Shown here one piece after another: positions 1-64,000 of a stretch of 64,000 nt of DNA (its first letter is position 1; the number at the start of each line of letters is the position of its first letter). The notes under the pieces are model-generated. The model was not told where the DNA came from and ran no database searches. It saw nothing but the letters and a program-made list of their open reading frames with translations. The translations under genes were made by a program, and so were the position numbers. The stretch is from contig CBDFJF010000001.1 in assembly GCA_965248265.1 (NCBI GenBank), forward strand, positions 832,001-896,000, in the 5' to 3' direction. The DNA comes from Candidatus Latescibacterota bacterium (GTDB taxonomy: Bacteria; Latescibacterota; UBA2968; UBA8231).

Positions 1-135
1 GTACATCGACCGAAGGAGAGCCCGATATGCGGTACGTCACAAACGGCGCTGGCGCCACACCCCGGATCGAAGTTGAAGGGGTCTTGAGTAGTCGCAAAGA
101 CCGCGATTGGACGCGGGAGGAGCGGCACGAAAGTC

Positions 136-1281
136 GTGTATAGAGACGTCTACACCCGGCTCGGTGTTACGCCGGCCATCAACGGCATCGGCAACAAGAC
201 CACCCTCGGCGGCTCGACGCCCAGCGCAAGGGCCGCTCTGGCGATGGCCGAGGCCGACTACTACTACTGCGACATGCCCGAGCTCATGGAGCAGACCGGC
301 AAGCGCGTCGCGGAGCTTCTGGGAGTCGAGGCCGCGTTCATCACGTCGGGGTGCGCCTCGGCTATCGTCCATGCGGCGGCGGGTGTCATGGCCGGAACGA
401 AGAAGGACGATGTCGGCAAGCTCCCCGACACGACGGGGACGAAGAAGCAGTTCGTTTTCCAACGCAAGCAGCGGTATTTTTACGACAGGTGCTACGAGGT
501 CCCCGGCGGCGAGCTCGTGATTGTCGGCGACGAGGCCGGCTGTGCGCGGGAGCAGGTGGAAGCAGCGATTACCAACAAGACCGCGGGCATCGGGTACGTC
601 GACAAGACGCGCAGAGAGCCCGATCCTTCGGTCGTGTCCATCGACGAGGCCATGGAGATCGGACGGCGTCACGGTGTGCCCGTTATCGTTGATGCCGCAT
701 ATCAGACGTTCCCCTTACAAAAATTCCGGTGGATTGCAGGGGCCGCCGATCTTGTGTGTTTCGGCGGAAAGTACGTGGGGGCTGCCAGCTCCGCTGGCTT
801 CCTGTGCGGTCGGGCCGACCTCGCTCACGCCGCATCGCGGCAGGGCTTCGTGGCCTCGCAGTCGGGCGACCGGCCCCGCTCCTTCGGTAGGTCGATGAAG
901 GTAGACCGCCAGGAGATCGTCGGCATGGTCGTCGCCCTCGAAGAGTGGCTGACCATGGACCACGAGGACAGGGTACTCAGATATCTTTCCTACGCGAAGA
1001 TCATCCAGGACGCGGTTGACGACGTCGCTGACATCACCACGCAGGTCAACCGCCTCGAAAAGCACGCCGCTGCCAGCTTGACGGTCAAGCTCGAGCCCGC
1101 CGCGCTGGGCATGACCGGCCACACTGTTGCAGAGCGTCTTGTCGCCGACACTCCGAGAATACTCGTCGGCCACGGTGACAGCTGGATCACGGTCGCCCTG
1201 CACACCCTCCACGACGGCCATCCGGAGGTGATTGCGGAGCGTCTCCGCGCTATATTGCAGGGCGTAAAATGTAAAGCGTAA
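136..1281 (+). CDS. SelA/DgaE-like PLP-dependent transferase
   Basis: 381 aa. N-terminal YTRLGVTPAINGIGNKTTLGGS, VPVIVDAA, PLP-lysine region VCFGGKY and GRSMKVDRQEIVG are typical of SelA-like fold-type I enzymes. GGAGG upstream. Confidence 0.8.
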   Translation: MYRDVYTRLGVTPAINGIGNKTTLGGSTPSARAALAMAEADYYYCDMPELMEQTGKRVAELLGVEAAFITSGCASAIVHAAAGVMAGTKKDDVGKLPDTTGTKKQFVFQRKQRYFYDRCYEVPGGELVIVGDEAGCAREQVEAAITNKTAGIGYVDKTRREPDPSVVSIDEAMEIGRRHGVPVIVDAAYQTFPLQKFRWIAGAADLVCFGGKYVGAASSAGFLCGRADLAHAASRQGFVASQSGDRPRSFGRSMKVDRQEIVGMVVALEEWLTMDHEDRVLRYLSYAKIIQDAVDDVADITTQVNRLEKHAAASLTVKLEPAALGMTGHTVAERLVADTPRILVGHGDSWITVALHTLHDGHPEVIAERLRAILQGVKCKA

Positions 1282-1369
1282 AAACTCCTCCGCGAAGGCC
1301 TCTCCTCGGCCAAAGCCTTCCCCGCCACCCCCCAACGCGTTACCGTCTGCTGAAGTGGGCTATATTACC

Positions 1370-3631: not shown

Positions 3632-3764
3632 AGCACCTCCTCGAATCCATCTCGTGAAATAATCCCAGGACAGGCAGTATACACGGAGTGACAGTCCGCA
3701 GCTCGTCCAGAAGCGACACCCACGGCATGTGCGTACGTTACGAAATGCCGGCAAGGAAAATTGT

Positions 3765-4370
3765 ATGCACACGCGAAATATACTACCCATAGAGACGGAT
3801 CGATTGACCCTCCATTCATTAGGGATCGAGTTTCTGCGTTCGATATCCGAGAGTAGTATTGAAAAGGCGCAGGCCCTAGTCGACTATCACGTCCCACTGA
3901 ATTGTTCCCTTCTTGGCCATCGACAGATAGATCGTCGTCTGAGGATGATAGAGGTTGACCCTTCCCAGCATCCTTGGATGTATCGATCCATAGTAAGGAA
4001 GAATGACAAACAAATGGTTGGGTTCATTAGCTTTCACAGCAAGGCGCCAGACCCCGAAATTTCGGCGTATACCGAACTGGGGGCACAGCTTGGCTACACC
4101 ATTGAGCCAGAATGTCGCCAGAGGGGATATGCTAAGGAAAGTGCTATTGGGATGATGGAGTGGGCGCACTCAAATTTCGGTGTTCGAAGTTTTGTTCTGA
4201 CTATTAGCCCCGAAAACCATCCGTCTCTGAAAATGGCAGAATCCATGAACTTTAGGATTGTCGGGGAGCAAGATGATTATTCTGACGGGCTGGAGTTAGT
4301 AATGAAGGCTGAGATCGGTGAGATCCTCAGAACTAAGAGGGTATATCAAGGTGCCGCGGAAGAGTACTGA
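3765..4370 (+). CDS. GNAT acetyltransferase, RimJ/RimL type
   Basis: IETDRLTL, LGYTIEPECRQRGYAKES acetyl-CoA motif, ISPENHPSLKMAESMNF. More AT-rich than its flanks. Confidence 0.85.
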   Translation: MHTRNILPIETDRLTLHSLGIEFLRSISESSIEKAQALVDYHVPLNCSLLGHRQIDRRLRMIEVDPSQHPWMYRSIVRKNDKQMVGFISFHSKAPDPEISAYTELGAQLGYTIEPECRQRGYAKESAIGMMEWAHSNFGVRSFVLTISPENHPSLKMAESMNFRIVGEQDDYSDGLELVMKAEIGEILRTKRVYQGAAEEY

Positions 4371-4515: not shown

Positions 4516-5521
4516 ATGCCTAAGCCGACAATCGCTGCGACGAAGAGCGAAGCGGAGTTTAACGAGAGACAGAAGTCAGACCGCGAGGGATTCAGGGCAT
4601 TTCTCGGCAGTTGTCGGGAGGGCGAGGAATACACAAGTGCAAATCCTGGATACGCTCTTGGACGTGCGTACTTCCAGTACTACCTGGATCGACGACCATC
4701 GAAGATTGCGGCACAGGCACTGTCGTTCGCCTTCTGGATTTGGCGGCGCTTGACGGGCGTTTCCGATGATGTACGCCAAGCAGTGGGCCAGATATCAGAG
4801 GAGCCATCCGCATCAAAGGAGATTCAGCAGGTCTGGACCGAAGTCTGGAGAAACATAGAGGGAGGCATCATCAGCCCGTTCCAGAGGGATGGTAGACTTG
4901 GGGAAGGTTTTTCATTGATAGAGACCCTTGCGGAGAGGCTGACCTCTCCGACGGCGGAAGCCAATCTGCTCCACTGTACCATGCTCGCACGATTGAAGCA
5001 TGACGAGAATATGCAGATTGCGCGGAGGAACGCCGAACGCATCCTCGAACTGGATACGAGCGAGTGTCACGAACACATCGCCCGACACGCCCGCGGCTGC
5101 CTCTATGAGTGCGACAATCTGAACATCGGACAGGCGGCTCCGACTTTTAGATCGCCCGACATGGAGGGTAACCTGATAGACCTCGCAGACTTCCAGGGCA
5201 GCGTCGTGTTACTGAACTTCTAGTCGACAACGTGCCCGTTCTGTCCTGCCGAGTTTCCTCATCTCAGGGAGTGCGAGCAGAGGTATCCGGACAGGGTGCG
5301 TGTCATCGGACATCGGCGCGCTCCGAGGTCGCCTTGATGACGGGGATCTAGCCTGGCCCCAGATCTGTCAAGGAGCTGGTTGGCATGATGATGCCCCCCG
5401 GACTCTCTACAATGTTTTCGGTGTCCCCCATACATACGTGATTAGCAGCACCGGGACGATCGCCGCCAGGAGGGTTTGGCGAAAAGAAATCACAGAGATG
5501 GTGGCCTCCCTGCTAACGTAA
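4516..5521 (+). pseudogene. TlpA/redoxin-like thiol-disulfide oxidoreductase, disrupted
   Basis: GQAAPTF..DLADFQGSVVLLNF, then TAG (5221-5223) at the usual Trp, then STTCPFC (CxxC). A frameshift near 5310 resumes as WPQIC..YNVFGVPHTYVI. Confidence 0.8.
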
Positions 5522-5768: not shown

Positions 5769-8516
5769 ATGAGCATGATGTCCTGGATTTGCCCTATCAA
5801 GAGCGGAGTCATCTGTCTTCTGGCTGCCTTGTTGCTGGTAGCCAGGAGTGCCAGTGGAGTCGTGGAATTTGTCTGCGCCGGCACAGGTGATGCCCCTGCC
5901 CACGACGGTTCCGCGGCTAAACACCTCGCCGCAGCGGCCTCCCCTCAAACCCTCAGAGCCCTCGTCATCTTCGCCGAGTTTGAACAGACCGGCTCCCGCC
6001 ACGGCGTGCCTGGCTTTGCGGTGAACCTGTTCGACCGTGAACGACCCGGTAGTCTGACGCATTTCTACAGCACCATGTCACACGGCCAGTTCCTGGTTGA
6101 GGGCTTCGTGCTGCCGCGCCGTTACGAATCAGACAGTCCCGCGTCGGCATACGTCGCCGCTGCCGACGATCAACGCGGCCTCTACGGCCAGTTCGTGCGG
6201 GAGATTCTGCGCAAGGCGGATGGTGATTTCAACTTCGCGGAGTTCGACAACGACGGGCCCGACGGCCTGGCCAATTCCGGTGACGATGACGGCTTCGTCG
6301 ACTACATCTTCGTCAACGTGGAGTCGACCCCGCCCCGGTTCTTCATCGGCAACGCCACTGGAATTGGCGGCCTGGGCATGGACGACCCGTATGTATCTGA
6401 AGACCTGGGCGTCAACGGCGAGCCCATTCAGGTCCCCCGATATACATCAGGCGGCTCGGTGCTGCGGGAAGGCAACTTCGAACAAACAGTCGGAATCATG
6501 GCTCACGAACTCGGCCACCATCTGGGCTTGCCCGATCTCTTTGACCGCTCCTATCCCAGTCCGGCCGAAGACAGCGCCGGCATCGGCCGCTGGGGCCTGA
6601 TGGCCTGGGGCACCGGTGGCTGGAATGGGCATGACGGACCGAATCCCTTCAGTGCCTGGAGCCTGGAGCAGCTGGGCTGGATTGGAGTTGACAATGAACG
6701 CCTGGTGGAGGTCAGCGGCGAGCACAAGGTCGCGGCCTTTACACCCCTGGGAGAGGGAGGCCATGTCTACAAGCTGGCAACCCGGAATCCCTTCGAGTAC
6801 TTCCTGGTGGAGCATCGCCGGCCCGTCACGAATTATTACGAGCGCAATCTGCCAGGCGACGGACTCTTGGTCTGGCATGTTCGCAACCTCCGCCGTGGCA
6901 ATCGCCTCGAGCGGGAGAAGCGCGTCGATCTGGTCTGCGCCGACGGGCTCTATGAAGACGGCGGGTTTCCGAACGGCAGCGTAGCTGCCCCGTTCTCGGG
7001 CGGTGACAATCTCGACTTCTGGTCTCACGACCCGGACTACGCAGGGTCGCATGCCGGAAACCTTGGCGATGCGACAGACCTGTTCGATGGCGTTCACTAC
7101 AAGGAGTTTTCCCCCACCTCCAATCCCCCGACCTTGCCGGGTATCGGTGTCTTTAACATCCGCCGCGAAGACGGGCTCCTGGCCGCCGACCTGCACCGTG
7201 ACACGCGCCATCGCTCGGGAACCATCGAAACGAATGAGGTCTGGCGCGACAGCATCATCGTCGTCGGGGATGTTGTTGTAGCTGCTGGGGCGAGACTGAC
7301 CATCAAGCCCGGTACGGTCGTTGTCTTCGATCTCGAGTACAACGGTGGCGGCCTGGATGCAGAGCGCAGCGAGCTGGTCATCGATGGCAAGCTCATCGTC
7401 GGTGAATTGGGTAGGCGACCGGTCGTATTCACCTCTGCAGCCCCCTTGCCCAGGCGCGGCGACTGGTACGGCATCGTCGTCCACTTCCAGGGCGAGATCG
7501 ACATCCGCAACGCCCTCATCGAGTACGCCCACGAGGGAATCTCCGGTGGAGGTTGGAATCGTCCGCACATACTGCAGGCCGTGACCGTTCGCCAGGCGCG
7601 CCTGACCGGCATCCACCTGGTACGGATGAGACAACCCCTCACGCTTTCGGAGCTCGAGGTCAGTGAGTCGGGCGCCGGAGTGCGAATCCAAGGTTCCGGC
7701 CCGGTGCGGGTGACCGATTCCCGCTTTGCCGACAATGCCACCGTTGGCTTCGTGCAGATCGGCGGGTCGCTGCAGCTGCTCAACAGCGAATTCGTCGACA
7801 ATGGTATCGAGAATGCGGACGGGGCTAATGTGGTCCTCGAACGTACTGTCGGCCGTATCGCCGATAATCAGTTCAGCGGTGGAGTGGGGATCCGCATCAT
7901 CGAGAGCCGCGACCTCGCCGTCGATGGCAACACGCTGAACCGCCATACGGTTGGCCTGTTATCGTCCAATTCACAACCGCGCGTAGAAGGCAATCGCATG
8001 GTTGCCAACGAGCTCGCCGTGCGGGTTGAAGGGCCCTTGGTGCCAGTTCGTGTTTCGCTGAACACGGTTGAGGACACGGAGCGCCTGCTGGACAACCAGG
8101 CCTCGCGTCAGGTCAATGCCGCCAACAATTGGTGGGGGGGAGAGGATGAGTTGTCGATCGGCCAACGCATGGATGGGGCCGTTGAATGGCGTCCGTTTCT
8201 CAACTTCGATCCCAGTCTGCCGCTGGACTTCGCCTTGAAACAGAACTACCCCAACCCCTTCAACAGCGGCACCACGATCGAGTACACGGTCGGCACCAGC
8301 ATCCTGGGGACGGGATCCAGCACCGTATTGGACATCTTCACAATCACCGGCAGCCTCATCCGCCGCCTCGTCGATGAGCCGACCCTGCCCGGCCACCACG
8401 CGGTCTCCTGGGATGGCCGTGACCGGCGCGGTCATGCAGTCGCCAGCGCCGTCTACTTCTACCGCTTGCGGATCGGCGAGCATACGGAAACACGGCGGCT
8501 CTTGCTGTTGAAGTGA
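5769..8516 (+). CDS. M6 (immune inhibitor A-like) metalloprotease with right-handed beta-helix and FlgD-Ig C-terminal domain
   Basis: HELGHHLGLPD zinc motif, GIGRWGLMAWG, EYFLVE, parallel beta-helix repeats, LKQNYPNPFN..WDGRD..VYFYRL..ETRRLLLLK tail, signal peptide. Confidence 0.88.
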   Translation: MSMMSWICPIKSGVICLLAALLLVARSASGVVEFVCAGTGDAPAHDGSAAKHLAAAASPQTLRALVIFAEFEQTGSRHGVPGFAVNLFDRERPGSLTHFYSTMSHGQFLVEGFVLPRRYESDSPASAYVAAADDQRGLYGQFVREILRKADGDFNFAEFDNDGPDGLANSGDDDGFVDYIFVNVESTPPRFFIGNATGIGGLGMDDPYVSEDLGVNGEPIQVPRYTSGGSVLREGNFEQTVGIMAHELGHHLGLPDLFDRSYPSPAEDSAGIGRWGLMAWGTGGWNGHDGPNPFSAWSLEQLGWIGVDNERLVEVSGEHKVAAFTPLGEGGHVYKLATRNPFEYFLVEHRRPVTNYYERNLPGDGLLVWHVRNLRRGNRLEREKRVDLVCADGLYEDGGFPNGSVAAPFSGGDNLDFWSHDPDYAGSHAGNLGDATDLFDGVHYKEFSPTSNPPTLPGIGVFNIRREDGLLAADLHRDTRHRSGTIETNEVWRDSIIVVGDVVVAAGARLTIKPGTVVVFDLEYNGGGLDAERSELVIDGKLIVGELGRRPVVFTSAAPLPRRGDWYGIVVHFQGEIDIRNALIEYAHEGISGGGWNRPHILQAVTVRQARLTGIHLVRMRQPLTLSELEVSESGAGVRIQGSGPVRVTDSRFADNATVGFVQIGGSLQLLNSEFVDNGIENADGANVVLERTVGRIADNQFSGGVGIRIIESRDLAVDGNTLNRHTVGLLSSNSQPRVEGNRMVANELAVRVEGPLVPVRVSLNTVEDTERLLDNQASRQVNAANNWWGGEDELSIGQRMDGAVEWRPFLNFDPSLPLDFALKQNYPNPFNSGTTIEYTVGTSILGTGSSTVLDIFTITGSLIRRLVDEPTLPGHHAVSWDGRDRRGHAVASAVYFYRLRIGEHTETRRLLLLK

Positions 8517-8537: not shown

Positions 8538-8558
8538 CGACGCGCGCCATGCGCGTCG
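8538..8558 (+). terminator. GC-rich hairpin after the protease gene
   Basis: CGACGCGC-gccat-GCGCGTCG perfect 8-bp stem, 21 nt after the stop; no U-tract. Confidence 0.35.
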
Positions 8559-8559
8559 C

Positions 8560-8949
8560 AGCAGGACGGTGTGGAGGTGCACATCGATGCGCGTCCCGAT
8601 CCAATACGCTCTCTAAGCCGGCTGCCACCGACGCCAAATATGGAGCACACCGTTAAGATCCGGCTAGCCCCGGGCAGCACGAAAGAGGAGACCTTCGTTC
8701 TCGATCTTGAGCCGCTCCAAGAGCTTGGGGTACAGGCACTCGGTGTTTTCACCGAGAGTGGCCACAGCTGCGAGATCGCTATTCCTCTTGAGTACATCGA
8801 ACAGCGACAGGGAGGACTGGGACAGAATCCGTATCAACGTTACAGTCAGAGACAAGGATAGCGATGGAGAGTTTTGTCAGCTCTGGTGGCGTCCTCCATG
8901 GAGCCAGTTCGACAGCTACCCCGGATCTGGGACGTTCGTCCGAAAGTGA
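8560..8949 (+). pseudogene. C-terminal CBM9-like sugar-binding domain remnant
   Basis: DGVEVHIDARPDPIRS..EIAIP../..QLWWRPPW..YPGSGTFVRK, homologous to the tail of the gene at 26453-28391. No 5' part; frameshift near 8812. Confidence 0.7.
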
Positions 8950-9273
8950 CAGGCTATAGTCGCCAGACTGCTGGAATTGACCTTCGGCCAACTCGCTCGC
9001 CGATACAGTCTGATGCTCGGTTTTACCCGATATTCGACGAAACGACCAAAGAGTTCGTGTATCAACTGGTTTTCCTGGGATTACGCGAACCTTTTGTTTG
9101 CATACAAGTAGTTAAACGACATGAAGAATCAGTAAAGGCAACTGACGCGAGCCTAAAAGCCCCTTGAGGTGAAATAGAGTATGCAGCCTTGGGTGATGAT
9201 CTCGACACTCATACTTGGCCTATCTGGAATGGCTTGCTTGATGTGAATCGCCCCGGGTTTTTCGGAGACTCGG

Positions 9274-56033: not shown

Positions 56034-56791
56034 GACTGATGCTGGCGGGCTGCGAGTACTCTGGAACGACAACTCTGTCCTACGCGATAGCAAAGTGGGT
56101 TAGGGAAAATATGGGCGAGCGCATCGGTTATCACGACCACTGGAAGCTGCCGCATATTAACCACGCACCAATCCAGACGCAGGCGGAGTTGGACGAGGTA
56201 TTCGAGGCATGGGCCGAGGGACGGGGAGAGGACCCTACCTATTCGGGTCTGACTCCGCATGAGCAGGAGCTCTTCAACGCCCTGACGCCCAGGATAAAGG
56301 AGTGCTTTCAGCGATACCATATAGAGTACCACATAAGTCAGGACTTCTACTCTCAGCCGCACCACAACATCATCGGGATGCAATATGATGAAGCCGTGTA
56401 CGCACCGCTGTACTACGGCTATGGAGGGCCGGGCCAGTATGCCGATCGCGAGCTAGTCGCCCGTCGAACTGAGGAAAAGATCATGAGGGCTGCCCCCGAC
56501 ACTGTTCTCGTCCTGACGAAGGCGGCGCCGGAGGTCATTGCTGCGCGGATGAGCGAATCCCCCCACCCTCATACTGTATTGCAGGAGAAGGACATTGAAT
56601 ACGTGTTGGAGAAGTTTGAGGACCAGTACGAGAGATCGCTGATAATGAGCAAGTTCACAGTCGACACCAGCACTGCGACCGTCGAGGAGTCGCTATCGGA
56701 GTTTGTCAGCAAGTACGAGCCGCTCCTGACCGACGCCGACCGCACGCGGATCCTGGTCCACAAGGCTAGGCAGAAGGGTGAATGGATTTGA
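56030..56791 (+). CDS. P-loop nucleotide kinase-like protein
   Basis: MRLMLAGCEYSGTTTL (Walker A lacking Lys), VLVLTKAAPEVIAARM, VDTS; ATGA overlap with the upstream gene. Confidence 0.7.
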   Translation: MRLMLAGCEYSGTTTLSYAIAKWVRENMGERIGYHDHWKLPHINHAPIQTQAELDEVFEAWAEGRGEDPTYSGLTPHEQELFNALTPRIKECFQRYHIEYHISQDFYSQPHHNIIGMQYDEAVYAPLYYGYGGPGQYADRELVARRTEEKIMRAAPDTVLVLTKAAPEVIAARMSESPHPHTVLQEKDIEYVLEKFEDQYERSLIMSKFTVDTSTATVEESLSEFVSKYEPLLTDADRTRILVHKARQKGEWI

Positions 56792-56906: not shown

Positions 56907-57250
56907 TCAGGTCCGCTTTACCTCCATGTAAGTGCCCAGGATCTCACTCTGGCCTGAATCATTGATGTCCGTCCGCGCATAGGCAACCAGTAGGGTGTCC
57001 GGCGCCACTTCTTCAACGCAGTCGTAGTTACAGGCGTCGTAGGCCTGTGGCCCGCGGTGAAAGCAGAAGTGTCCGATCCACGTGTGCCCCTGGTCCAGGC
57101 TGAACGCCAGCCAGTCTCCGGTCCGCCCGCAGGTCACGGCTATCACGCCGTTGGCCATCAGACACGCATTGGGCCACACGCCGCGGTCGGTGATCGGGTC
57201 GGCGTGACTCCAGCTCTTTCCCCCGTCGATGGACCGGCTCAGGTACCTCG
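56907..57250 (-). pseudogene. Sialidase (Asp-box) 3' remnant
   Basis: Asp-boxes SRSIDGGKSW and SLDQGHTW, EVAPDTLLVAY; no start. Confidence 0.7.
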
Positions 57251-57254
57251 GAGT

Positions 57255-57591
57255 CGTAGTGCCACACCAGTTCCTGACGAAGGATTCTGGCAAGACATGG
57301 GAGCACTTCCAGACTGTCGTGATGTCACCGGGAATGAGAGCGGTCGATCGAGTTATTGACACACCGCCAGCATATGTCAGAGCCTCCGGAGTTGCTCCTG
57401 AACAGGGTCCGTTTCCGGCCGCAGGGCACCGCACGGTGCGGCACCCGCGTGTTCGCTTCATTGACGACAAGGCTTACCTACGGTATGACGATCGTCGCTA
57501 CACCCAACCCCACTCGAAATCGAGCTATTTCGGTTACAAACTCCGGATACTCCCTGTCTCCTGGTTCTATGAAGGAGATGCGTCGCTGTAG
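57255..57591 (+). pseudogene. Sialidase (Asp-box) 3' remnant
   Basis: LTKDSGKTWEHF, HPRVRFIDDKAYLRYD, KLRILPVSWFY. Confidence 0.65.
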
Positions 57592-57781: not shown

Positions 57782-60700
57782 ATGACAAAACAGGTCATCT
57801 TTACAGGCTTTATTCTAATCAGCCTGGCGACAGTCGATGCCGAGCTGCCCAACTCCCCCGCGCAGTCCCCACGCTTCGAGAAGATCCCGACAGGGTTCGA
57901 TTTATACGCGATCCTTCAAGATCGGGACGGTTTTTGGTGGTTGGCCACGCAAAGTGGACTGGTCAAGTACAACGGCTACGATTTCCACCGTTACTCCGCT
58001 GGCGAGCACTCCATCACCGGAAACTTCGTGAACGCCCTCTACGAGGACAGCGAGGGTATCCTTTGGATCGGCACGACAAGCGGGCTCTGCTCTTATGACA
58101 AGGCGACCGATAGGTTCACTCAATACAAGCACGATCCCCGGCAGCCCGAAAGCATCAGCCACGACAACATCCTGATGCTCCAGGCGATCGTCGAGGATCG
58201 CGATGGAGCGATATGGGTCGGGACCTCAGACGGGTTGAACCGCTACGATAAGAGTGAGAAGCGCTTCACCCGTTACAGCAGCGACCCGACCGACGCCGCA
58301 AAGCTCATCGATAACTTCATAGGCGCGATAATCCGGGACCGACATGGCTTCCTGTGGGTCGGCACGGTCCACGGCCTGCATAAGTTCGATCCCACCAAGG
58401 GCATCGTTGTCGAGCGATACCCGAGCCAGCGTGACGACCCGATGAGCCTGCATGGCGGCAACGTCACCGCCCTCATGGAGGACAGCGGCGGAACGATCTG
58501 GGTGGGAACCCATGAGGACGGGCTGCAGAAGCTCGATCCTGTCACTCGGACCGTGACCCACTATGTCGCCGGCTCCGAGCGCGCATCCAGCCTGAGTAGC
58601 AATTTTGTCTTTTCGATGATCGAGTTCACGGACGGCAAGCTGTGGATCACGACGTTTGGGGGCGGACTCAACATATTCGACCCCGACACCGAGACGTTTT
58701 CGCCCTACCAGTACAACTCCGAGGTCAACGACCCCGATGGCATCAGCAGCAACGATCTCGTGGCCATCGTCATGGACAACTCGGGCGCAGTATGGATCGC
58801 CACCCTGGGCGGCGAGATCAATCGATACGACCCGGCGGGGCAGAGGTTCAAGACAGTGCGGCATGTGCCGGGTGTACATAACAGTGTGAGCAAAGGATCG
58901 TATATCGGCCAGATCATCGAGGACCGCACCGGCGTGGTGTGGATTGCCGTAGGGGGGGCGGGGCTGGACCGCTACGACCGCACGACCGGCGCGTTTACGC
59001 ACTACCGCCACGTTCCGGACGACCCCGAGAGCCTGCCGGAATCCTACGGGCACGCGCTCATCGAGGACACGCAGGGAAACCTATGGATGACGTCGATGAA
59101 TTGGATCGTCCTCGTCGACCGGGAGACGGGCAAAGCAAAAAAGACCTATCCTGCCAAGGCCTGGCCACACAGCCCCATCGAGGACCGCGGCGATCCGGAT
59201 ATCCTCTGGTTTGGCACCGGCGGCTTGGGGCTGCTGAAGTTTCACAAGCCCACGGGAGAAACGACCTATTTCGAACCGGATCCTTCATCCGAGACGAGCG
59301 TCAGCGTTGGCGTCGTCCTCTCCATCTACCAGGACGATGAGGGCTTCATCTGGGTTACGTCGCTGGGAGGCGGACTCGACCGATTTGACCCGCGTACCGG
59401 GAAGGTTGTAGCCAAGTACAAGCACGACCCCGACGATCCGAGCACACTCGCCAGCAACACCCTGTACCAATTTTTCAGGGATGCCTCGGGTACCTATTGG
59501 ATCGGCAGTGAAGCCGGACTGAACCGTTTCGATCCCAACACCGGAACGTTTCGCCGCTTTTCCGAGCGCGATGGCACGTTTCCGATGAGCTCGGCGGGGC
59601 AGATCGCGGAGTACCCGAGAGGCCAGCTATGGATAGGCGGTGACGGGGGAATCGTCCGCTTCGATCCCGAGACCGGCGATGCTCGGCTCTACAGAGTGGA
59701 CTTTCACATCGGGGCTTTTCGGCCACTGGTCACCAAGGACGGTGAGCTCTGGTTCTATGAAGACAACATCATCATCCGCTTTCACCCCGAGGCGATCACG
59801 GATGAGACCACCTCCACCTCTATCCCGGTGTACATTACCGCGCTCACGCAGCGCGGCAAGCCACTCAATCTGGGCGCTGCGTCCGAGAAAAGCCGATCGA
59901 TCCATCTCGATTGGCGAAACAACTTCTTCGAGTTCGAGTTCGCCGGGTTGGACTACCAGAGGGTCGGTGACATTCAGTACCGCTATCGGCTCGAAGGCGT
60001 CGACAAGAATTGGTACGAAGCCGGCACCACACGGCGTGGCCGCTACACCGGCTTGCAGGGAGGAACCTATGCGCTCCAGGTTATGGCGACCAACAAAGAC
60101 GGCCAATGGAGTGACCGCATGGCCGAGCTGAGCGTCGTCGTAGACCGACCACCCTGGCAAACCTGGTGGTTCAGGATTGTTGCAGGTGTATCTGTTTTGG
60201 CTTTGGCGTTTGGCGGGTACAAAAGAAGGATAAGAAATATTGAGACCCAAAAGAAACAACTTGAAATTCAGGTAGCAGAACAAACCAAAGAGATACGAGA
60301 TACGCAGGTGCAGTTGGTGCAATCAGAAAAGATGGCGGCGTTGGGAAAGCTTACTGCAGGCATTGTTCATGAAATTAATACGCCGGTTGGTGCACTCAAA
60401 AGTACAGTGGACACCATGAGTCGATGTGGCGCTAAGATAAATCAAATTTTGGATAACAGTAACACCCTTGCTGAACTCAAAGATAACAGTGTCTATCAGA
60501 AGTCTCTTCAAATCCTCGAAGAAAATCGTCAGGTCGCATCATCGGCCGGTGAAAGAATTGTGAAAGTTGTAACTAGCTTGCGAAATTTTACCAGACTGGA
60601 TGAAGCCGAATTCGAAAAGGCAGACATCCATGAAGGATTGGATAGCGCCTTGACGCTAATCCAACATGAAATGAAAGACCGAGTGAGCGTTGAAAAAAAT

Positions 60701-61075
60701 TATGGTGATATTCCCGAGATTCGATGTTATCCAGCCGAGCTTAATCAAGTTTTCATGACTTTATTGCGGAATGCAGCGCAAGCGATTGAAAACAAGGGTA
60801 CCATCGCCATCAAAACATCTACAGATGAGAAAAATGTGTATGTGAAAATTTCAGATTCGGGAAAAGGTATGCCCCCAGAAAAAATGAAGACGCTTTTCGA
60901 ACTAGGTTTTACAACAAAGGACACCAGAGTCGGGTTGGCCATGGGTTTGAGTAATGCGTACAACATTATTCAAAACCATAAAGGTGAATTAAGGGTAGAA
61001 AGTGAAGTAGGCAAAGGCAGCACTTTTACGATTAATTTGCCGATGGATTTGAAGGAAACTTTCAAACCTGTGTAA
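57782..61075 (+). CDS. Sensor histidine kinase with periplasmic beta-propeller (Reg_prop) and Y_Y_Y domains
   Basis: Repeated EDxxGxxWxGT, YRYRLEG..GTY, PPWQTWWF TM; H-box HEINTP, N-box ELNQVFMTLLRNA, G1 DSGKGM, FTTK, G2 GLAMGL. Confidence 0.92.
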   Translation: MTKQVIFTGFILISLATVDAELPNSPAQSPRFEKIPTGFDLYAILQDRDGFWWLATQSGLVKYNGYDFHRYSAGEHSITGNFVNALYEDSEGILWIGTTSGLCSYDKATDRFTQYKHDPRQPESISHDNILMLQAIVEDRDGAIWVGTSDGLNRYDKSEKRFTRYSSDPTDAAKLIDNFIGAIIRDRHGFLWVGTVHGLHKFDPTKGIVVERYPSQRDDPMSLHGGNVTALMEDSGGTIWVGTHEDGLQKLDPVTRTVTHYVAGSERASSLSSNFVFSMIEFTDGKLWITTFGGGLNIFDPDTETFSPYQYNSEVNDPDGISSNDLVAIVMDNSGAVWIATLGGEINRYDPAGQRFKTVRHVPGVHNSVSKGSYIGQIIEDRTGVVWIAVGGAGLDRYDRTTGAFTHYRHVPDDPESLPESYGHALIEDTQGNLWMTSMNWIVLVDRETGKAKKTYPAKAWPHSPIEDRGDPDILWFGTGGLGLLKFHKPTGETTYFEPDPSSETSVSVGVVLSIYQDDEGFIWVTSLGGGLDRFDPRTGKVVAKYKHDPDDPSTLASNTLYQFFRDASGTYWIGSEAGLNRFDPNTGTFRRFSERDGTFPMSSAGQIAEYPRGQLWIGGDGGIVRFDPETGDARLYRVDFHIGAFRPLVTKDGELWFYEDNIIIRFHPEAITDETTSTSIPVYITALTQRGKPLNLGAASEKSRSIHLDWRNNFFEFEFAGLDYQRVGDIQYRYRLEGVDKNWYEAGTTRRGRYTGLQGGTYALQVMATNKDGQWSDRMAELSVVVDRPPWQTWWFRIVAGVSVLALAFGGYKRRIRNIETQKKQLEIQVAEQTKEIRDTQVQLVQSEKMAALGKLTAGIVHEINTPVGALKSTVDTMSRCGAKINQILDNSNTLAELKDNSVYQKSLQILEENRQVASSAGERIVKVVTSLRNFTRLDEAEFEKADIHEGLDSALTLIQHEMKDRVSVEKNYGDIPEIRCYPAELNQVFMTLLRNAAQAIENKGTIAIKTSTDEKNVYVKISDSGKGMPPEKMKTLFELGFTTKDTRVGLAMGLSNAYNIIQNHKGELRVESEVGKGSTFTINLPMDLKETFKPV

Positions 61076-61477
61076 ACTTCATCGGGATTTTTTAGCCGTT
61101 AGGTTGAGCGGCCGTGTACACATAGGAACCACTTGTGATCGCAACGGTTGGTTGCGCGTCAATCCACCGTTCACCAGGTACGTACGCCAGATGAGCGGAT
61201 TACGGCAACATGCGTCAGGGCCGCGTCGTTGGGCATCGAGGGCGCAGAAGCGCTGGCTCGAGGAGAACGCGAGATTGGGTTGGACGAAGATGCGATTGCC
61301 GAATCAGCTCGGGGCCGGGCATCGCACTGTCAGGACGATGCTCGGTTCGTCGGAGAACGAGCGAGAAGGACCCGCAATTGCGCCTCGAGCGCAGCTAGCC
61401 GAACATTGCGTTCGAATACACTTTCGCATCACATAGCTGAGAGTGGGGCAGATCGCCCCCTGAGGACCGCGAGCAAA

Positions 61478-62986
61478 GTGTCCGGACCCGCCACTGAGAT
61501 CACCGAATTCATCGATCGCACCCTTGCCGGACGCACCTCGACGGCGGGCGGGTTCCGCTTCGGCGTGCTGGCCGACCTGCACATCTGGGGGTCCAACCAG
61601 CTGTGGGCAGATGAAGAGGTGCGCGAGTGTCTGGAGCGCTGCCGCGACGGTGGGGCGGCCTTCGTGTTCGTGGTCGGCGACCTGGGGACCACGGAGACGG
61701 AGGTCCCGCGAGAGGGAGGTAGGGCGCGCCTTCCAGATGTATTCAACGAGTGCATCGCCGCGGTTGAGGGGTGTCCCCCCGTCTTCTTCAGTATGGGCAA
61801 CCACGAACCGGACGGAGAGGGCAAGAGCTCCTGGTTGCGGGCGCTGTATCCGGGGGTCTTCCCCGACCTTGAGGGCAGCGCGAACGAGCGCTTCTTCTAC
61901 TACTCCTTCGACTTTGGGGGCTGCCACTTCGTCGCCCTCGACAGCCACGGCACGGTGCCGGACGCGCCGCCGATGTGTATCGGTGGCGGCCCCACCCATT
62001 TCGCGCGACTGCCTGAAGAGGAGCTGGCCTGGCTGAGGCAAGATCTGGAGCGGCACAGCGGCCGGCTCACCTTCGTTTTCATGCACGAGCCGGTCGTGCA
62101 GATCACACACAACCGACCCTGGCACCTCCTGCAGAATCGCGGCCGCCTCCTCGGTGAGTTGCAGCGCTCCCCCGACGTCCAGTGGGTCTTCCAGGGGCAC
62201 ATCCACCACCTCAGCCAGGTGTGCGGCTATGGTCTGAACCTGTGTCATGTGGGACGCCGCGTCCCGCAGCTCGTCGAGGTTGACGGGGAAACCGCCGAGC
62301 TCTTCGACTTGCTCCCGGGCGGCGTCACCACGCCAGTACAGTTCACCCGCGTTGAGGACTACGAGCGGGATCGCTGGGCCCGGCGAGACGGGCGCGTCGT
62401 CTACCGCCTCGCGGAGCAAGGTCCGCAGAGCGACCGAGGGCTCTTTGAATGCGCCACCCTCGTCGGAGCGGATGGAGAAGTCACACCGCCCGAGGGACAG
62501 GGGACGATGATTCGGGTGTCGCAGGCGCTAGAGAGAAAGGAGCCGGGCCAGGTCCAGGACCTGTATGGCTACCTGGCCATGGACTTCATCCTGCCGATCT
62601 ACGACGGCATGACGTTCGAGTATCAGGTCCACTGGTCGGCCGGGGCGCCCCACGACCATTTCGCTCTGGTGCCGATCATCAACACGGCCGGCGGCGAGGA
62701 GTATGGGATGCTGCACGACCAGGAGGGCCTGCCGATCGATACGCACCCTGAGCGCCCCCTGGACAGCTACTACAACCTGGGATCGAACGACGGACGCTAC
62801 TGCGCCCCCAGCCTGGAAGGTCGAGCCACCGGCGTCTGGTGGCCCCGCGTCTGCGACCTGTCATACCTGGCCGGTAGCTGGATCGTCGGCGTCGTCGCTT
62901 GCGCGACCCCACCCCTGGAGAAGGCCGTCGAGGCGGGCGCGCTCCGGTTCTACCTGAGCGACATCAGTCTCACGTGGCGGGCGTAA
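61478..62986 (+). CDS. Calcineurin-like metallophosphoesterase with C-terminal extension
   Basis: LADLH, VGDLG, MGNHE, VALDS, FMHEP, FQGHIH. Start uncertain: the ORF is open from 61148 but its first ~110 codons look unrelated. Confidence 0.8.
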   Translation: MSGPATEITEFIDRTLAGRTSTAGGFRFGVLADLHIWGSNQLWADEEVRECLERCRDGGAAFVFVVGDLGTTETEVPREGGRARLPDVFNECIAAVEGCPPVFFSMGNHEPDGEGKSSWLRALYPGVFPDLEGSANERFFYYSFDFGGCHFVALDSHGTVPDAPPMCIGGGPTHFARLPEEELAWLRQDLERHSGRLTFVFMHEPVVQITHNRPWHLLQNRGRLLGELQRSPDVQWVFQGHIHHLSQVCGYGLNLCHVGRRVPQLVEVDGETAELFDLLPGGVTTPVQFTRVEDYERDRWARRDGRVVYRLAEQGPQSDRGLFECATLVGADGEVTPPEGQGTMIRVSQALERKEPGQVQDLYGYLAMDFILPIYDGMTFEYQVHWSAGAPHDHFALVPIINTAGGEEYGMLHDQEGLPIDTHPERPLDSYYNLGSNDGRYCAPSLEGRATGVWWPRVCDLSYLAGSWIVGVVACATPPLEKAVEAGALRFYLSDISLTWRA

Positions 62987-63232
62987 GGTGCAGCCCTTCT
63001 CGATGTTACGGTGCGATCTGTCGCATCGGCTCCTCGGCCAGTTCTGTGAAGCCGGCGAGATCCCTTCTCGACTTCCTCTGCTTCAAGATCAGTTGAGGAA
63101 ACGCCATTTCGCTTCGCCCTTCGCGCATACCTCACATTGTCGCTCAGGTCCCGGGGGGCGCACAAGCCGACACACGGCGGCTGCCGCGAGATCGCGCGAT
63201 CATCCTCGGGCAAAGTCGAGAAAGGATTCGCC

Positions 63233-64000
63233 ATGATCCACCTTCGCCGTGTTGCCTCGAATAAGGAATTCTACACAGGCGCCGTCATCGAAATCAGCGG
63301 TCCGCGCAACAACCGCTTCATCCTCTGGCCTGAGGAGAAATGGGCCTGGGAGGAGGTGGACGGATCGGGCGGCGGCTTCATGCACGAGAACAACATCCTC
63401 GATTTCCGGCAGGAGAATGTGGGCGGCGCCATCTCCTACCGGCTCGACGTGGGGCCACAAGGATGCCGAACGCTCGTGCGCGTCATTCCCGGCGAGGATA
63501 CGGTCGTCATCGAGCACGAGATCGACAACCGGGGGCAGGGGTGGGTAGAGGGCGGCTCTCCCTGCTTCCAGATCGGGTATGCGCGCGACTTCCAATCGTG
63601 GGGATTCGAGCAGGCAAAGCGCTCGTTCGTGTGGACGCAGGAGAACGGCTTCACCTGGATCAGCGACACGCGCAGGACCGGGAAGACGAAAAACCGGGGG
63701 CGCAAGACGTTCTGTCAGGATTATCACCTGACCGATCCGACGACGGACTCGATTTTCGGACGGTCACCGGACCTTGCCGTCAGCCCGATGATCGGGGCCG
63801 TCTCGCGGGATGGCGCGCTGCTCGTCGGCTGCGCTGGCGACGAGGCGTCGGACGACGTCTGCCACGCGTTGCTCAACTGCCTTCACGTATTTGTCCGGCG
63901 TCCTGTGGGCCCTGGGAAGAAGAGGACCTTCAGCTACACCCTCTACTTTCTCGAGAACGACATCGGCCAGCTGGTTCGCCGGGCGGGGGCGGATTATCCG
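63233..64000 (+). CDS. Hypothetical protein, runs off the window end
   Basis: AAAGGA RBS plus ATG; open frame MIHLRRVASNKEFY..NCLH..YFLENDIGQLVRR to the end of the window; absent from the ORF track because it has no stop. Confidence 0.7.
   Translation, partial: MIHLRRVASNKEFYTGAVIEISGPRNNRFILWPEEKWAWEEVDGSGGGFMHENNILDFRQENVGGAISYRLDVGPQGCRTLVRVIPGEDTVVIEHEIDNRGQGWVEGGSPCFQIGYARDFQSWGFEQAKRSFVWTQENGFTWISDTRRTGKTKNRGRKTFCQDYHLTDPTTDSIFGRSPDLAVSPMIGAVSRDGALLVGCAGDEASDDVCHALLNCLHVFVRRPVGPGKKRTFSYTLYFLENDIGQLVRRAGADYP

What the first reader, a model, noticed from the sequence alone, without database searches (positions are those of the whole stretch)
1..64000. Gene collage: intact single genes joined almost entirely by scraps of other genes
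Seen: about 20 spacers translate as 25-150 aa ends of recognisable families. Examples are phosphoesterase 5596, CBM9-like 8560, FlgD tails 16460 and 24895, STAS 17893, Gfo 21300, GNAT 28412 and 36415, S9 37897, resolvase 42670, ABC-2 46290, and sialidase 54245, 56907 and 57255. Genes normally found in operons stand alone (ptxD, tauD-like, sensor kinase), orientation is mixed, and base composition changes from gene to gene. Inference: this is a capture zone where roughly 1-3 kb foreign fragments are repeatedly integrated with bits of their donor neighbours, then trimmed by deletion. I saw no integrase and no shared junction motif for most joins, so known integron or IS mechanisms explain only part of it.
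Basis: partly seen in the sequence, partly recalled or inferred. Interest (0 to 1): 0.8.

Follow-up and report, generated by a model that had tools for sequence, protein, structure and literature searches.

The report
Gene-exchange zone littered with gene scraps
In this stretch of an uncultured bacterium's chromosome, single genes recently shared with related bacteria sit between broken leftovers of other genes, which is a real and unusually fine-grained case of fast gene gain and loss but not a new kind of genetic element.

Summary
In 16-17 of 30 spacers of at least 60 bp I found about 20 supported gene fragments. The window (G000:C1:832001-896000, a 7.3 Mb Candidatus Latescibacterota-like genome) has 79% coding density against a genome median of 87%, and unusually uneven base composition.

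The new result concerns origin. About 12.2 kb (19%) of the window lies in ten gene-sized patches that are 88-96% identical in DNA to genomes of at least five other genera, whereas rpoB/rpoC are only 68-81% identical across the family. The flanks of these patches are never shared. One further gene, a delta carbonic anhydrase, has relatives only in other phyla. Three 20 kb control regions are collinear with relatives at 66-79% and have no such patch. Independent contigs from four sequencing runs cross several junctions without a mismatch, so this is not an assembly chimera.

The pattern is not one discrete locus. The 20 kb on either side look the same, and the genome holds 416 paralog-detectable fragments. 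Mobile-element genes are present (an IS3 with 13 identical copies, an IS1595 remnant, a resolvase remnant).

Best reading: a large accessory zone of rapid gene gain and deletional decay. The way DNA is integrated remains unresolved.

The parts
3729..4370 (+). GNAT acetyltransferase ORF (213 aa), probably intact, lying in a 'spacer'
   Evidence: Pfam Acetyltransf_3, E 8.8e-15, profile positions 45-138 of 138
5125..5223 (+). N-terminal AhpC/TSA-like fragment at the end of ORF 4516-5223
   Evidence: Pfam PF00578, profile positions 1-32 of 124, E 7.5e-4, below the cut-off
5769..8516 (+). Intact M6 peptidase / beta-helix gene (915 aa). No high-identity match in relatives
   Evidence: Pfam; 64-70% DNA matches only
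8550..8946 (+). C-terminal fragment (aa 493-622 of 622) of a metallophosphoesterase/CBM9-type protein, with an internal frameshift
   Evidence: blastx to own paralog C1:741118-742986, E 1.7e-19, in two frames
9244..10556 (-). Intact IS3-family insertion sequence (OrfA 10188-10541, OrfB 9274-10188) with a frameshift pseudoknot, 39-nt terminal inverted repeats and a 3-bp target duplication
   Evidence: Pfam rve and HTH_Tnp_1; Rfam ALIL, 101 bits; inverted repeats; 13 copies at 100% identity in the genome; flanks read
11030..11592 (+). Intact DUF433 + DUF5615 (PIN-like) gene pair, a putative toxin-antitoxin module
   Evidence: Pfam E 9e-25 and 2.6e-34
12063..12299 (+). 5'-truncated copy (aa 21-99 of 100) of a small own-genome gene
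   Evidence: blastx E 3e-9
15880..16584 (+). C-terminal piece of a secreted protein: a CarboxypepD_reg domain plus a conserved FlgD-like tail, frameshifted within the tail
   Evidence: Pfam E 5.5e-8; tail blastx E 1e-10 in two frames
16757..17880 (+). Patch: intact Zn-dependent alcohol dehydrogenase gene (16802-17830), 94% and 93% identical to two genomes of genus g9. GC3 is 0.59
   Evidence: boundary alignment; dN/dS 0.10-0.14, dS 0.18
17885..18037 (+). Weak SpoIIAA/STAS-like C-terminal fragment
   Evidence: Pfam PF11964, profile positions 65-106 of 106, E 0.0064, below the cut-off
19021..20408 (-). Patch: intact 471-aa gene (19002-20417, weak GSDH hit), 93.5% identical to G026 (genus g18)
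   Evidence: dN/dS 0.36
20836..21146 (.). Two short fragments: + strand aa 12-45 of 339, and - strand aa 60-129 of 205
   Evidence: blastx E 8e-5 each
24441..24794 (-). Internally deleted IS1595-type element: 44-nt inverted repeats around the last ~48 residues of the transposase domain
   Evidence: inverted repeats; Pfam DDE_Tnp_IS1595, profile positions 106-153 of 153, E 2e-13; 85% identical to G023; raised depth in runs
24835..25062 (+). Orphan FlgD_ig-type C-terminal tail (last ~77 aa of large secreted proteins)
   Evidence: blastx E 3e-19; Pfam FlgD_ig E 1.1e-8
25159..25956 (+). Intact delta carbonic anhydrase gene, GC 0.49, of cross-phylum origin
   Evidence: Pfam CA_like E 1e-73; 56 of 56 relatives lie in other phyla, best 72-74% aa identity; GC
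26453..28388 (+). Metallophosphoesterase + CBM9 gene whose last ~53 codons are displaced into another frame at ~28229
   Evidence: Pfam; blastx of 28230-28388; sequence reproduced with 0 differences in 3 runs
28360..28644 (+). Weak internal GNAT fragment
   Evidence: Pfam Acetyltransf_1, profile positions 58-90 of 116, E 0.0028
30108..30919 (+). Patch: intact PhyH dioxygenase gene (30141-30923), 96% identical to G026 (g18) and 88% to G024 (g17)
   Evidence: dN/dS 0.18, dS 0.10
30967..31760 (-). Remnant of an ~871-aa family gene: N-terminal ~170 aa plus C-terminal 66 aa, with ~1.9 kb deleted between them and 4 extra bases at the joint. 91-94% identical to own C2:1881587-1884202 and to G026
   Evidence: dN/dS 0.54
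31802..33957 (-). Patch: intact DUF6785/DUF6784 membrane protein gene (31824-33830) with 127 bp upstream. 91% identical to 4 genomes of genus g21 and 88-91% to a fifth. GC3 is 0.91
   Evidence: dN/dS 0.25
35029..36040 (-). Intact 293-aa gene (35082-35963), a 92% duplicate of own C1:365264-366277
36178..36493 (+). 90% copy of the upstream region plus the first 26 codons of the GNAT gene at own C1:698214
37761..38054 (+). Weak peptidase S9 C-terminal fragment
   Evidence: Pfam, profile positions 165-210 of 213, E 0.049
42672..42875 (+). Resolvase (serine recombinase) fragment
   Evidence: Pfam PF00239, profile positions 78-142 of 145, E 1.7e-7; blastx
44743..44874 (+). Internal fragment (aa 39-82 of 120) of a small own-genome gene
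   Evidence: blastx E 5e-12
46168..46638 (+). C-terminal fragment of an ABC-2 permease
   Evidence: Pfam ABC2_membrane, profile positions 168-209 of 211, E 6e-6
48601..49191 (+). Remnant of a ~750-aa family gene: N-terminal ~140 aa plus C-terminal 62 aa, with the middle deleted
   Evidence: blastx to C2:2428510-2430786 and four other paralogs
54220..54441 (+). C-terminal fragment (~60 aa), 89% DNA identity to the end of an intact 463-aa gene in G011 and to G008
   Evidence: dN/dS 0.56
54605..56001 (+). Patch: intact 485-aa gene (54576-56033), 90% identical to G011 (g12). Its last 10 codons come from the next patch's leader
   Evidence: the G011 homolog is split into two ORFs
56003..56789 (+). 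Patch: intact 253-aa gene (56030-56791), 90% and 88% identical to G023 and G008 (g9)
   Evidence: dN/dS 0.24
56909..57251 (-). C-terminal ~110 aa of a BNR-repeat protein, 90% DNA identity to the 3' end of an intact 366-aa gene in G008
57274..57570 (+). C-terminal fragment (aa 276-375 of 377) of a second protein of that kind
   Evidence: blastx E 7e-41
57837..61085 (+). Patch: sensor histidine kinase (ORF 57659-61075, likely start 57782), 95% identical to G023 (g9). The identity begins just after the signal peptide
   Evidence: Pfam; the G023 copy is split into two ORFs; dN/dS 0.24

Best explanation
The window is part of a large accessory zone, at least 104 kb (C1:812-916 kb) and probably the low-density stretch C1:640-940 kb. 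In this zone genes are gained from other Latescibacterota genera, and occasionally from other phyla, and are lost by deletion faster than the debris is cleared.

Shown:
1. Gene-sized segments here diverged from copies in other genera far more recently than the genomes themselves did.
2. Each segment sits in a different context in each genome.
3. The intact genes are under purifying selection.
4. The DNA between them is rich in truncated, frameshifted and internally deleted genes and dead mobile elements.
5. An IS3 is currently active.

Inferred (the mechanism I commit to): DNA from co-occurring relatives enters the cell and is joined into the chromosome with little or no homology. The genome has a ComEC uptake channel, and it has Ku, so joining may be by end joining at breaks. 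At other joins, homology with members of the very large paralog families that fill this zone may help. Selection keeps the useful reading frame. Deletions of roughly 0.1-2 kb then erode everything else, both the resident genes that were hit and whatever came in alongside. Promoter-less 3' ends are tolerated longest, which would explain the excess of C-terminal fragments (126 C-terminal against 80 N-terminal genome-wide).
For: Recent exchange:
- Ten patches totalling about 12.2 kb are 88-96% identical to genera g9, g12, g17, g18 and g21.
- rpoB/rpoC are only 68-81% identical in the 72 of 76 family genomes that matched.
- dS of the patches is 0.10-0.34 and dN/dS of the intact genes is 0.10-0.36.

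Context:
- Three 20 kb control regions are collinear with relatives at 66-79%, with 0 of 60 kb at 88% or more. One 1.8 kb gene reaches 85%.
- The window shares no flanks with its best matches.
- The DUF6785 gene lies in conserved synteny within genus g21 but not here.

Other support:
- Cross-phylum delta carbonic anhydrase.
- Decay: 20 supported fragments, two internal-deletion remnants and frameshifts; 416 partial hits among 2,515 gaps genome-wide.
- Mobile DNA: IS3 in 13 identical copies with a target duplication, an IS1595 remnant and a resolvase remnant.
- Both 20 kb flanks show the same pattern.
- Junction-spanning contigs with 0 differences in up to 3 runs: 24765-29532, 29504-31051, 20073-23020, 33709-35120.
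- Ku and ComEC are present.
- Published precedent: Ku/LigD end joining can capture heterologous DNA into genomic breaks (PMC6379672, abstract). HGT concentrates in hotspots, many of them without recognisable mobile elements (PMC5635113, abstract).
Against: - No actual donor is in hand. The matching genomes may be co-recipients, so neither direction nor true junctions are known.
- No conspecific genome exists in the collection (genus g1 has one species), so turnover within the species is not shown.
- About 80% of the window has no high-identity match. The first 16 kb and 36.5-54 kb have none, so much of the window may be old or native.
- The patch ends fall within 0-180 bp of ORF ends at 16 of 16 boundaries. 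That is tidier than random fragment capture predicts, and here it needs selection plus trimming in both lineages to explain it.
- The end-joining step rests on one deletion joint with 4 extra bases and on the mere presence of Ku. LigD was not sought.
- The four runs are one sample, possibly the source of the assembly, so they are not independent of it.
- Depth ratios between runs differ about twofold between 16-23 kb and 25-29 kb. This could mean that part of the zone is present in only some cells.
- The controls were searched less widely than the window (two of the three against 5 genomes only).
Confidence: 0.6

Rival explanations
1. A dedicated gene-unit capture or mobilisation process is at work. 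Single genes with about 20-130 bp of flank move between genomes as units, and an undescribed system or a specialised use of end joining inserts them without an integrase or repeats. The scraps are failed or truncated insertions.
For: All 16 boundaries of the 8 intact-gene patches lie within 180 bp of ORF ends. In five g21 genomes the DUF6785 gene has a conserved context, none of which accompanies the window copy. Fragments show a 3' bias of 126 to 80, or 115 to 76 without the tail families, p = 0.006. Ku is present. Six reverse-transcriptase ORFs are present, four of them in the same low-density zone.
Against: No repeat family or inverted repeat is shared by the junctions. No recombinase lies in the window other than IS remnants. 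Terminator-like and promoter-like sites are not enriched (14 against 13.7 expected, 6 against 7.2 expected) and none sits at a patch end. A 13.3 kb block at 99% identity shows that long pieces move too. Selection plus independent trimming in two lineages can also produce gene-tight boundaries, and the comparators are not proven donors.
Confidence: 0.15
2. Paralog-anchored homologous recombination. The zone is built from very large gene families, and incoming or ectopic DNA recombines at conserved family segments. This shuffles genes and leaves chimeric or truncated family members.
For: The families are large: more than 60 PhyH paralogs, at least 13 members of the 871-aa family, 85 proteins with the FlgD-like tail, and more than 10 DUF6785 copies. 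In G026 the PhyH gene and the 471-aa gene lie between 871-family genes. Many scraps are conserved family ends. The sensor-kinase identity starts exactly after the signal peptide.
Against: Most patches (ADH, the 471-aa gene, the 253-aa gene, the 485-aa gene) have no family sequence at their edges in the window. Orphan tails are not hybrid genes. Paralog DNA identity is mostly 65-80%, which is low for RecA-dependent exchange (recalled, not tested here).
Confidence: 0.12
3. Ordinary in situ decay of a vertically inherited region, with no special gene influx.
For: Pseudogene fragments are genome-wide (416), an IS has expanded, and coding density is lowered. About 80% of the window has no high-identity foreign match.
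Against: The patches are 88-96% identical to other genera against 68-81% for rpoB/rpoC. One gene is of cross-phylum origin. The window has no synteny with relatives while the controls are collinear.
Confidence: 0.06
4. Assembly or binning chimera: the collage was created by the assembler from several organisms.
For: The genome is a metagenome-type assembly with 4.4% estimated contamination. Several patch genes have raised depth and variant letters in the runs, so close copies exist in other organisms of the same sample. Contigs of the runs break inside those genes.
Against: Contigs assembled separately from up to three runs cross many junctions with 0 differences. The patches are 4-12% diverged from every other genome and not identical to any. 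The window lies inside a 3.18 Mb contig that also carries collinear core regions.
Confidence: 0.04

Closest known systems
Chromosomal hotspots of horizontal gene transfer / plasticity zones (Oliveira et al. 2017, PMC5635113; abstract read)
   Same: Transferred genes are concentrated in one region, turnover is rapid, few or no recognisable self-mobile elements are present, and the gene content is strain- or lineage-specific.
   Different: Classical hotspots are intervals between two conserved core genes and are thought to use homologous recombination at those flanks. Here no collinear core gene appears within 20 kb on either side, the zone is at least 104 kb long, and the grain is single genes drawn from several genera.
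NHEJ (Ku/LigD) capture of heterologous DNA into chromosomal breaks (Dupuy et al. 2019, PMC6379672; abstract read)
   Same: Integration independent of homology and of an integrase. Ku is encoded in this genome. One deletion joint carries 4 extra bases and no clear microhomology.
   Different: That work is an experimental demonstration in Sinorhizobium. Here no insertion junction with a known donor has been examined, and LigD was not sought.
Pseudogene-laden genomes in early genome erosion (IS expansion, falling coding density; general knowledge, and PMC8092579 seen only in a search listing)
   Same: An identical-copy IS expansion, hundreds of gene fragments, frameshifts, and internal deletions of about 2 kb.
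   Different: Such genomes decay genes in place and gain little. This region is also gaining genes, the genome is large (7.3 Mb), and the intact genes are under purifying selection.
Integron cassette arrays
   Same: A series of mostly unrelated single genes of foreign origin placed side by side.
   Different: There is no integron integrase and no attC-like repeat family. Orientation is mixed (20 strand switches among 44 genes), the genes carry their own upstream regions, and they are up to 3.4 kb long.
Recombination units in tandem paralog clusters (Tsuru and Kobayashi 2008, PMC2568036; search listing only)
   Same: Evolutionary units that do not coincide with whole ORFs in clusters of paralogs. 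Conserved gene ends may serve as sites of exchange.
   Different: That case lies within one species and one tandem family. Here many families and several genera are involved.

Membership tests
Integron / cassette array | An integron-type tyrosine recombinase (IntI) next to the array | tested here: not met
   18 PF00589 matches in the genome (15 over the cut-off), none in C1:832001-896000. The nearest are C1:703299 and C1:1106899.
Integron / cassette array | attC-type imperfect inverted repeats at cassette ends | tested here: not met
   Repeat search of the whole window: no direct or inverted family recurs at junctions. No dedicated attC model was available, so weak sites could have been missed.
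Integron / cassette array | Co-oriented, mostly promoter-less cassettes | tested here: not met
   20 strand switches among 44 called genes. Patches include 27-127 bp of upstream sequence.
tRNA-associated genomic island / integrative element | A tRNA or tmRNA target, an integrase and flanking direct repeats | tested here: not met
   0 tRNA or tmRNA genes in the window, no integrase, no flanking repeats.
IS / composite transposon | A transposase with terminal inverted repeats and a target duplication that brackets the cargo | tested here: inconclusive
   One complete IS3 (1,313 bp, 3-bp duplication, 13 identical copies) and one IS1595 remnant. They account for about 1.7 kb and bracket no cargo in the window.
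HGT hotspot (sense of Oliveira et al. 2017) | A concentration of recently transferred genes with rapid turnover | tested here: met
   19% of the window is in patches at 88% identity or more, against 0 of 60 kb in controls. There are 20 supported fragments.
HGT hotspot (sense of Oliveira et al. 2017) | An interval bounded by conserved core genes, compared across strains of one species | not testable with these tools
   No second genome of the species or genus is in the collection (genus g1 has one genome). The 20 kb flanks are also non-collinear.
NHEJ-mediated DNA capture | Ku and LigD encoded in the genome | tested here: inconclusive
   Ku is present (C2:402828-403370, 151.8 bits). LigD was not searched.
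NHEJ-mediated DNA capture | Insertion junctions with 0-4 bp of microhomology or filler bases, and no target duplication | tested here: inconclusive
   Only one joint could be read against an intact copy: the internal deletion at 31198/31203, which has 4 extra bases. No insertion junction has a proven donor.
In situ reductive decay | Fragments whose intact orthologs sit at the same position in relatives | tested here: not met
   Intact counterparts of the fragments at 56909-57251 and 54256-54441 lie in unrelated contexts in G008, G023 and G011.

The most novel reading that the evidence does not exclude
Among co-occurring genera of this Latescibacterota family the unit of exchange is the single gene. 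Pieces bounded within roughly 0-130 bp of one reading frame are taken up and inserted with no homology, repeats or integrase, by Ku-dependent end joining or by a process not yet described. A copy made from a transcript is not excluded, given the 3'-biased fragments and the six reverse transcriptases. The result is chromosome zones that work as a shared, constantly re-dealt gene pool, with the scraps being aborted or eroded insertions.
Probability: 0.15. Interest if true: 0.8.

Novelty: new member of a known kind. Interest (0 to 1): 0.5.

Why it matters
How bacteria integrate foreign genes when no mobile element or flanking homology is visible remains largely unanswered. Here an almost complete genome of an uncultured phylum shows gene-by-gene mosaicism with at least five other genera, at 4-12% divergence. 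That is recent enough for donors, empty sites and intermediate states to still exist in the same communities. If long reads from such communities are mined, the true junctions could show whether end joining, paralog-anchored recombination or something new does the work.

Two practical points follow. Single-gene phylogenies and 'contamination' estimates for these lineages will be misleading in such zones. Gene callers will also report many fragments there as small genes.

Tried and rejected
Integron reading: rejected. There is no IntI, no attC-like repeat family, and orientation is mixed.

tRNA-island reading: rejected.

Gene-transfer-agent lead: an HK97-type capsid (PF05065) was found in 7 of 76 family genomes and not in G000. 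There is therefore no conserved agent of that type. Other capsid types were not searched.

Transcript-derived copies: terminator-like sites numbered 14 against 13.7 +/- 3.9 in shuffles, and promoter-like sites 6 against 7.2 +/- 3.0. None lies at a patch end. The scan gives no support, but it is crude.

Donor-neighbour test: blastn found no shared flank for any of 13 patches or duplicates. tblastx added only short, low-identity hits grouped by sum statistics, or hits to 871-family paralogs. Its output was very long and was cut.

Pfam and own-proteome searches gave nothing for 5587-5769 ('phosphoesterase') or 21145-21417 ('Gfo'). By eye the first begins with a motif typical of metallophosphoesterases. 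That motif is recalled, not tested.

No conclusion on habitat is drawn from them. I did not try to identify the sample or host of the coded runs or of the genome.

Positions 60001-64000 were not searched against relatives, apart from the locus alignment that carries the kinase patch to 61085.

Structure prediction, fold search, complex prediction, the search for homologous proteins, the search of protein representatives and the protein-atlas search were not used, because the question is genomic and not about any one protein.

(a directory listing to look for local databases) was wasted. Supplements of papers were not opened. The lateral-transfer tables of PMC8163846, which I could not see, may bear on exchange among these lineages.

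Full report
WHERE THE WINDOW LIES. The window is G000:C1:832001-896000 of a 7.32 Mb, two-contig genome with 59.5% G+C. The genome is estimated 92% complete with 4.4% contamination. Public records that carry close relatives of one of its genes are titled Candidatus Latescibacterota MAGs, and a few are labelled Gemmatimonadaceae. Its genus has no other genome in the collection. The family has 76 genomes in 18 genera.

GENE MAP. No gene caller was installed, so I called genes with a codon-usage log-odds model trained on the genome's long ORFs and annotated them with Pfam.

Intact genes include:
- an M6 peptidase, an ABC exporter pair, a Zn alcohol dehydrogenase and a pectate lyase;
- three PhyH/TauD-type dioxygenases;
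- a delta carbonic anhydrase;
- two metallophosphoesterases;
- a DUF6785/DUF6784 membrane protein;
- GNAT acetyltransferases, a 2-hydroxyacid dehydrogenase, an FG-GAP protein and a fucosidase;
- an ankyrin-repeat protein, a GFO/IDH/MocA oxidoreductase and an M19 peptidase plus amidohydrolase pair;
- a Reg_prop/Y_Y_Y sensor kinase.

- Between confident genes there are 30 gaps of at least 60 bp, 16.2 kb in all.
Pfam adds the resolvase, ABC-2, FlgD_ig, CarboxypepD_reg and IS1595 pieces.
- Two fragments are special. 30967-31760 keeps the first ~170 and last 66 residues of an ~871-aa family protein. 48601-49191 keeps the first ~140 and last 62 residues of a ~750-aa family protein. Both are genes with their middle deleted.
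- The metallophosphoesterase gene at 26453 has its last ~53 codons in another frame.
- Some 'spacers' hold intact small genes: a DUF433/DUF5615 pair and GNAT genes.

IS IT MORE THAN BACKGROUND?
- Coding density is 79.0% against a median of 86.9%, the 6.6th percentile of 900 overlapping windows. The median gap is 161 bp against 54 bp. There are 24 gaps of at least 150 bp, the 95th percentile. Strand switching is ordinary.
- Genome-wide, 547 of 2,515 gaps hit one of 4,178 own proteins of at least 200 aa at E <= 1e-5, and 416 of these hits are partial. The window's bin has 9 against a mean of 3.6. Three of 115 bins have more and five others tie.
- The 1 kb G+C content varies more than in 94% of windows. 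Gene GC3 runs from 0.59 to 0.91, against a genome mean of 0.727 +/- 0.052.
- So the window is an enriched example of a genome-wide condition. It lies inside a broad low-density stretch, C1:640-940 kb.

FOREIGN ORIGIN. DNA searches of the family genomes show gene-sized patches of very high identity. I aligned them to fetched loci.

| Patch | Window coordinates | Identity | Best match |
|---|---|---|---|
| Alcohol dehydrogenase | 16757-17880 | 94% / 93% | two g9 genomes |
| 471-aa gene | 19021-20408 | 93.5% | G026, g18 |
| PhyH | 30108-30919 | 96% / 88% | G026 / g17 |
| 871-family remnant | 30967-31759 | 91-94% | G026 and an own paralog |
| DUF6785 | 31802-33957 | 91% / 88-91% | four g21 genomes / a fifth |
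| C-terminal fragment | 54256-54441 | 89% | G011 and G008 |
| 485-aa gene | 54605-56001 | 90% | G011, g12 |
| 253-aa gene | 56003-56789 | 90% / 88% | g9 |
| BNR-protein fragment | 56909-57251 | 90% | G008 |
| Sensor kinase | 57837-61085 | 95% | G023 |

- Together the patches cover about 12.2 kb, 19% of the window.
- As a yardstick, a 4.5 kb rpoB/rpoC stretch of G000 is only 68-81% identical to the 72 of 76 family genomes that matched.
- Synonymous divergence of the patches is 0.10-0.34. dN/dS is 0.10-0.36 for intact genes, 0.54-0.56 for two remnants, and 0.06 for the BNR fragment, which must therefore have been truncated late.
- The delta carbonic anhydrase (G+C 0.49) has 56 detectable relatives among 185,579 species genomes. 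None is a Latescibacterota, and the best are Gamma- and Zetaproteobacteria at 72-74% amino-acid identity.

CONTEXT IS NEVER SHARED.
- The five g21 loci are collinear with one another over about 14 kb at 84-98%. Their similarity to the window stops at the ends of the one gene, and their flanking genes match G000 elsewhere at only 67-80%.
- The same holds for every other patch.
- Neighbouring pieces of the window map far apart in the same genome. In G023, for example, the kinase, the 253-aa gene and the BNR fragment lie at 0.31, 1.47 and 0.81 Mb of one contig.
- The intact counterparts of the two high-identity fragments are full-length genes of 366-463 aa in G008, G023 and G011.
These genomes may not be the donors.

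CONTROLS AND EXTENT.
- Three 20 kb control regions of G000 are collinear with relatives over many kb at 66-79%. They have no patch at 88% or more, and one 1.8 kb gene at 85% (family-wide; against five genomes).
- The 20 kb on each side of the window behave like the window: scattered paralog hits and one patch each, at 89% and 90%.
- Elsewhere, G000 and G026 share 13.3 kb at 99.1% identity, although their rpoB is only 75% identical. Long and very recent transfers therefore occur too.

NOT AN ARTEFACT.
- Contigs built separately from four public runs of one sample cover 16001-36000.
- Pieces with 0 differences cross many junctions: 24765-29532 in three runs, and 29504-31051, 20073-23020 and 33709-35120 in one run among the pieces listed.
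- Contigs break, depth rises and variant letters appear inside the alcohol dehydrogenase, the DUF6785 gene and the IS1595 remnant. This shows that close copies exist in other organisms of that sample.
- The sample may be the assembly's own source, so this excludes assembler chimeras but is not independent evidence. Raw long reads were not available.

MOBILE AND RECOMBINATION GENES.
- In the window: a complete IS3 with 39-nt inverted repeats, a frameshift pseudoknot, a 3-bp target duplication and 13 copies at 100% identity; an internally deleted IS1595 element; and a resolvase fragment.
- The window has no tRNA, no tyrosine recombinase, and no repeat family shared by junctions.
- Elsewhere in the genome: Ku, ComEC, 15 tyrosine recombinases over the cut-off, and six 449-aa reverse-transcriptase ORFs, four of them in C1:647-726 kb. 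There is no HK97-type capsid.

MECHANISM.
- Shown: recent, repeated, gene-sized exchange with several genera, insertion into non-homologous contexts, purifying selection on the intact genes, decay of the rest by frameshifts and deletions of up to about 2 kb, and current IS3 activity.
- Inferred: the route of entry and the joining chemistry.
- I favour homology-poor joining. End joining is possible because Ku is present and one deletion joint has 4 extra bases without clear microhomology. Joining may sometimes be helped by the large paralog families. Selection on the ORF and deletional trimming would follow.
- One feature remains unexplained. All 16 boundaries of the 8 intact-gene patches lie within 180 bp of ORF ends. 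If the kinase starts at 57782, all lie within 127 bp.
- Fragments are also 3'-biased genome-wide: 126 C-terminal against 80 N-terminal, p = 0.002. Without the tail families it is 115 against 76, p = 0.006.
- Trimming under selection, and better tolerance of promoter-less 3' ends, can explain both features. A process that moves genes as units cannot be excluded, and that is my novel reading at 15%.

COMPARISON WITH WHAT IS KNOWN.
- The closest known kind is the HGT hotspot or plasticity zone (PMC5635113, abstract). The differences are that this zone is very large, has no collinear core genes within 20 kb, and is mosaic gene by gene.
- Capture of foreign DNA by bacterial NHEJ has been shown experimentally (PMC6379672, abstract).
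- Lateral transfer among symbiont MAGs that include Latescibacterota has been analysed at community level (PMC8163846, passages only).
- My three literature searches on these themes found no description of such scrap-laden mosaics in this phylum. The term sets were Latescibacteria/sponge/HGT; sponge/symbiont/pseudogenes/coding density/transposase; and gene remnants/intergenic/HGT/illegitimate recombination. That covers only the held open-access library.

VERDICT. It is wrong or unsupported on donor-neighbour scraps, on the absence of recombinases and on a discrete capture locus. This is a new and striking member of a known kind, and I score its interest at 0.5.

Noticed in passing
G000:C2:1878445-1891725 (locus L100) versus G026:C10 (locus L086 3359-16646): A 13.3 kb block is 99.1% identical between two genomes whose rpoB is only 75% identical. 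Further 0.2-1.6 kb pieces at 95-99% are scattered to other places in G000. This points to very recent large-scale exchange, or to a shared element, in a cluster of 871-aa family genes.
   Followed up: partly
G000:C1:647745-726240, C2:784615 and C2:3892011: Six reverse-transcriptase ORFs of 449 aa (probably group II intron proteins; two share one score and four another). Four lie in the low-density zone upstream of the window. One lies 1.1 kb from the GNAT gene whose 5' end is duplicated at window 36178-36493.
   Followed up: no
window 10834-10938: A ~100 bp non-coding element with 6 other copies at 79-85% in G000 and copies at 80-85% in several other genomes, including another family of the class. 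It has no Rfam match and could be a small repeat or a structured RNA.
   Followed up: partly
window 25159-25956: A delta-class carbonic anhydrase with low G+C (0.49) whose detectable relatives are all outside the phylum, mostly iron- and sulfur-oxidising or marine Proteobacteria.
   Followed up: yes
L091 5180-8543 (G023) and L093 5147-6674 (G011): The high-identity counterparts of the window's intact sensor kinase and 485-aa gene are each split into two ORFs in the other genome. The exchanged genes are therefore decaying there.
   Followed up: partly
window 30920-30960: A ~19-bp motif occurs twice in tandem exactly in the short spacer between the PhyH patch and the 871-family remnant.
   Followed up: no
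window 16001-36000 in runs X9-X12: Contig depth ratios between runs differ about twofold between 16-23 kb and 25-29 kb. Part of the zone may be present in only a fraction of the population, or the libraries may differ in G+C bias.
   Followed up: no
whole genome G000: The paralog families are very large: more than 60 PhyH-type dioxygenases, at least 13 members of the 871-aa family, more than 10 DUF6785 genes, and 85 proteins of at least 200 aa that end in the FlgD-like tail.
   Followed up: partly
window 11030-11592: An intact DUF433 + DUF5615 (PIN-like) pair, a putative toxin-antitoxin module, lies 470 bp from the IS3.
   Followed up: no
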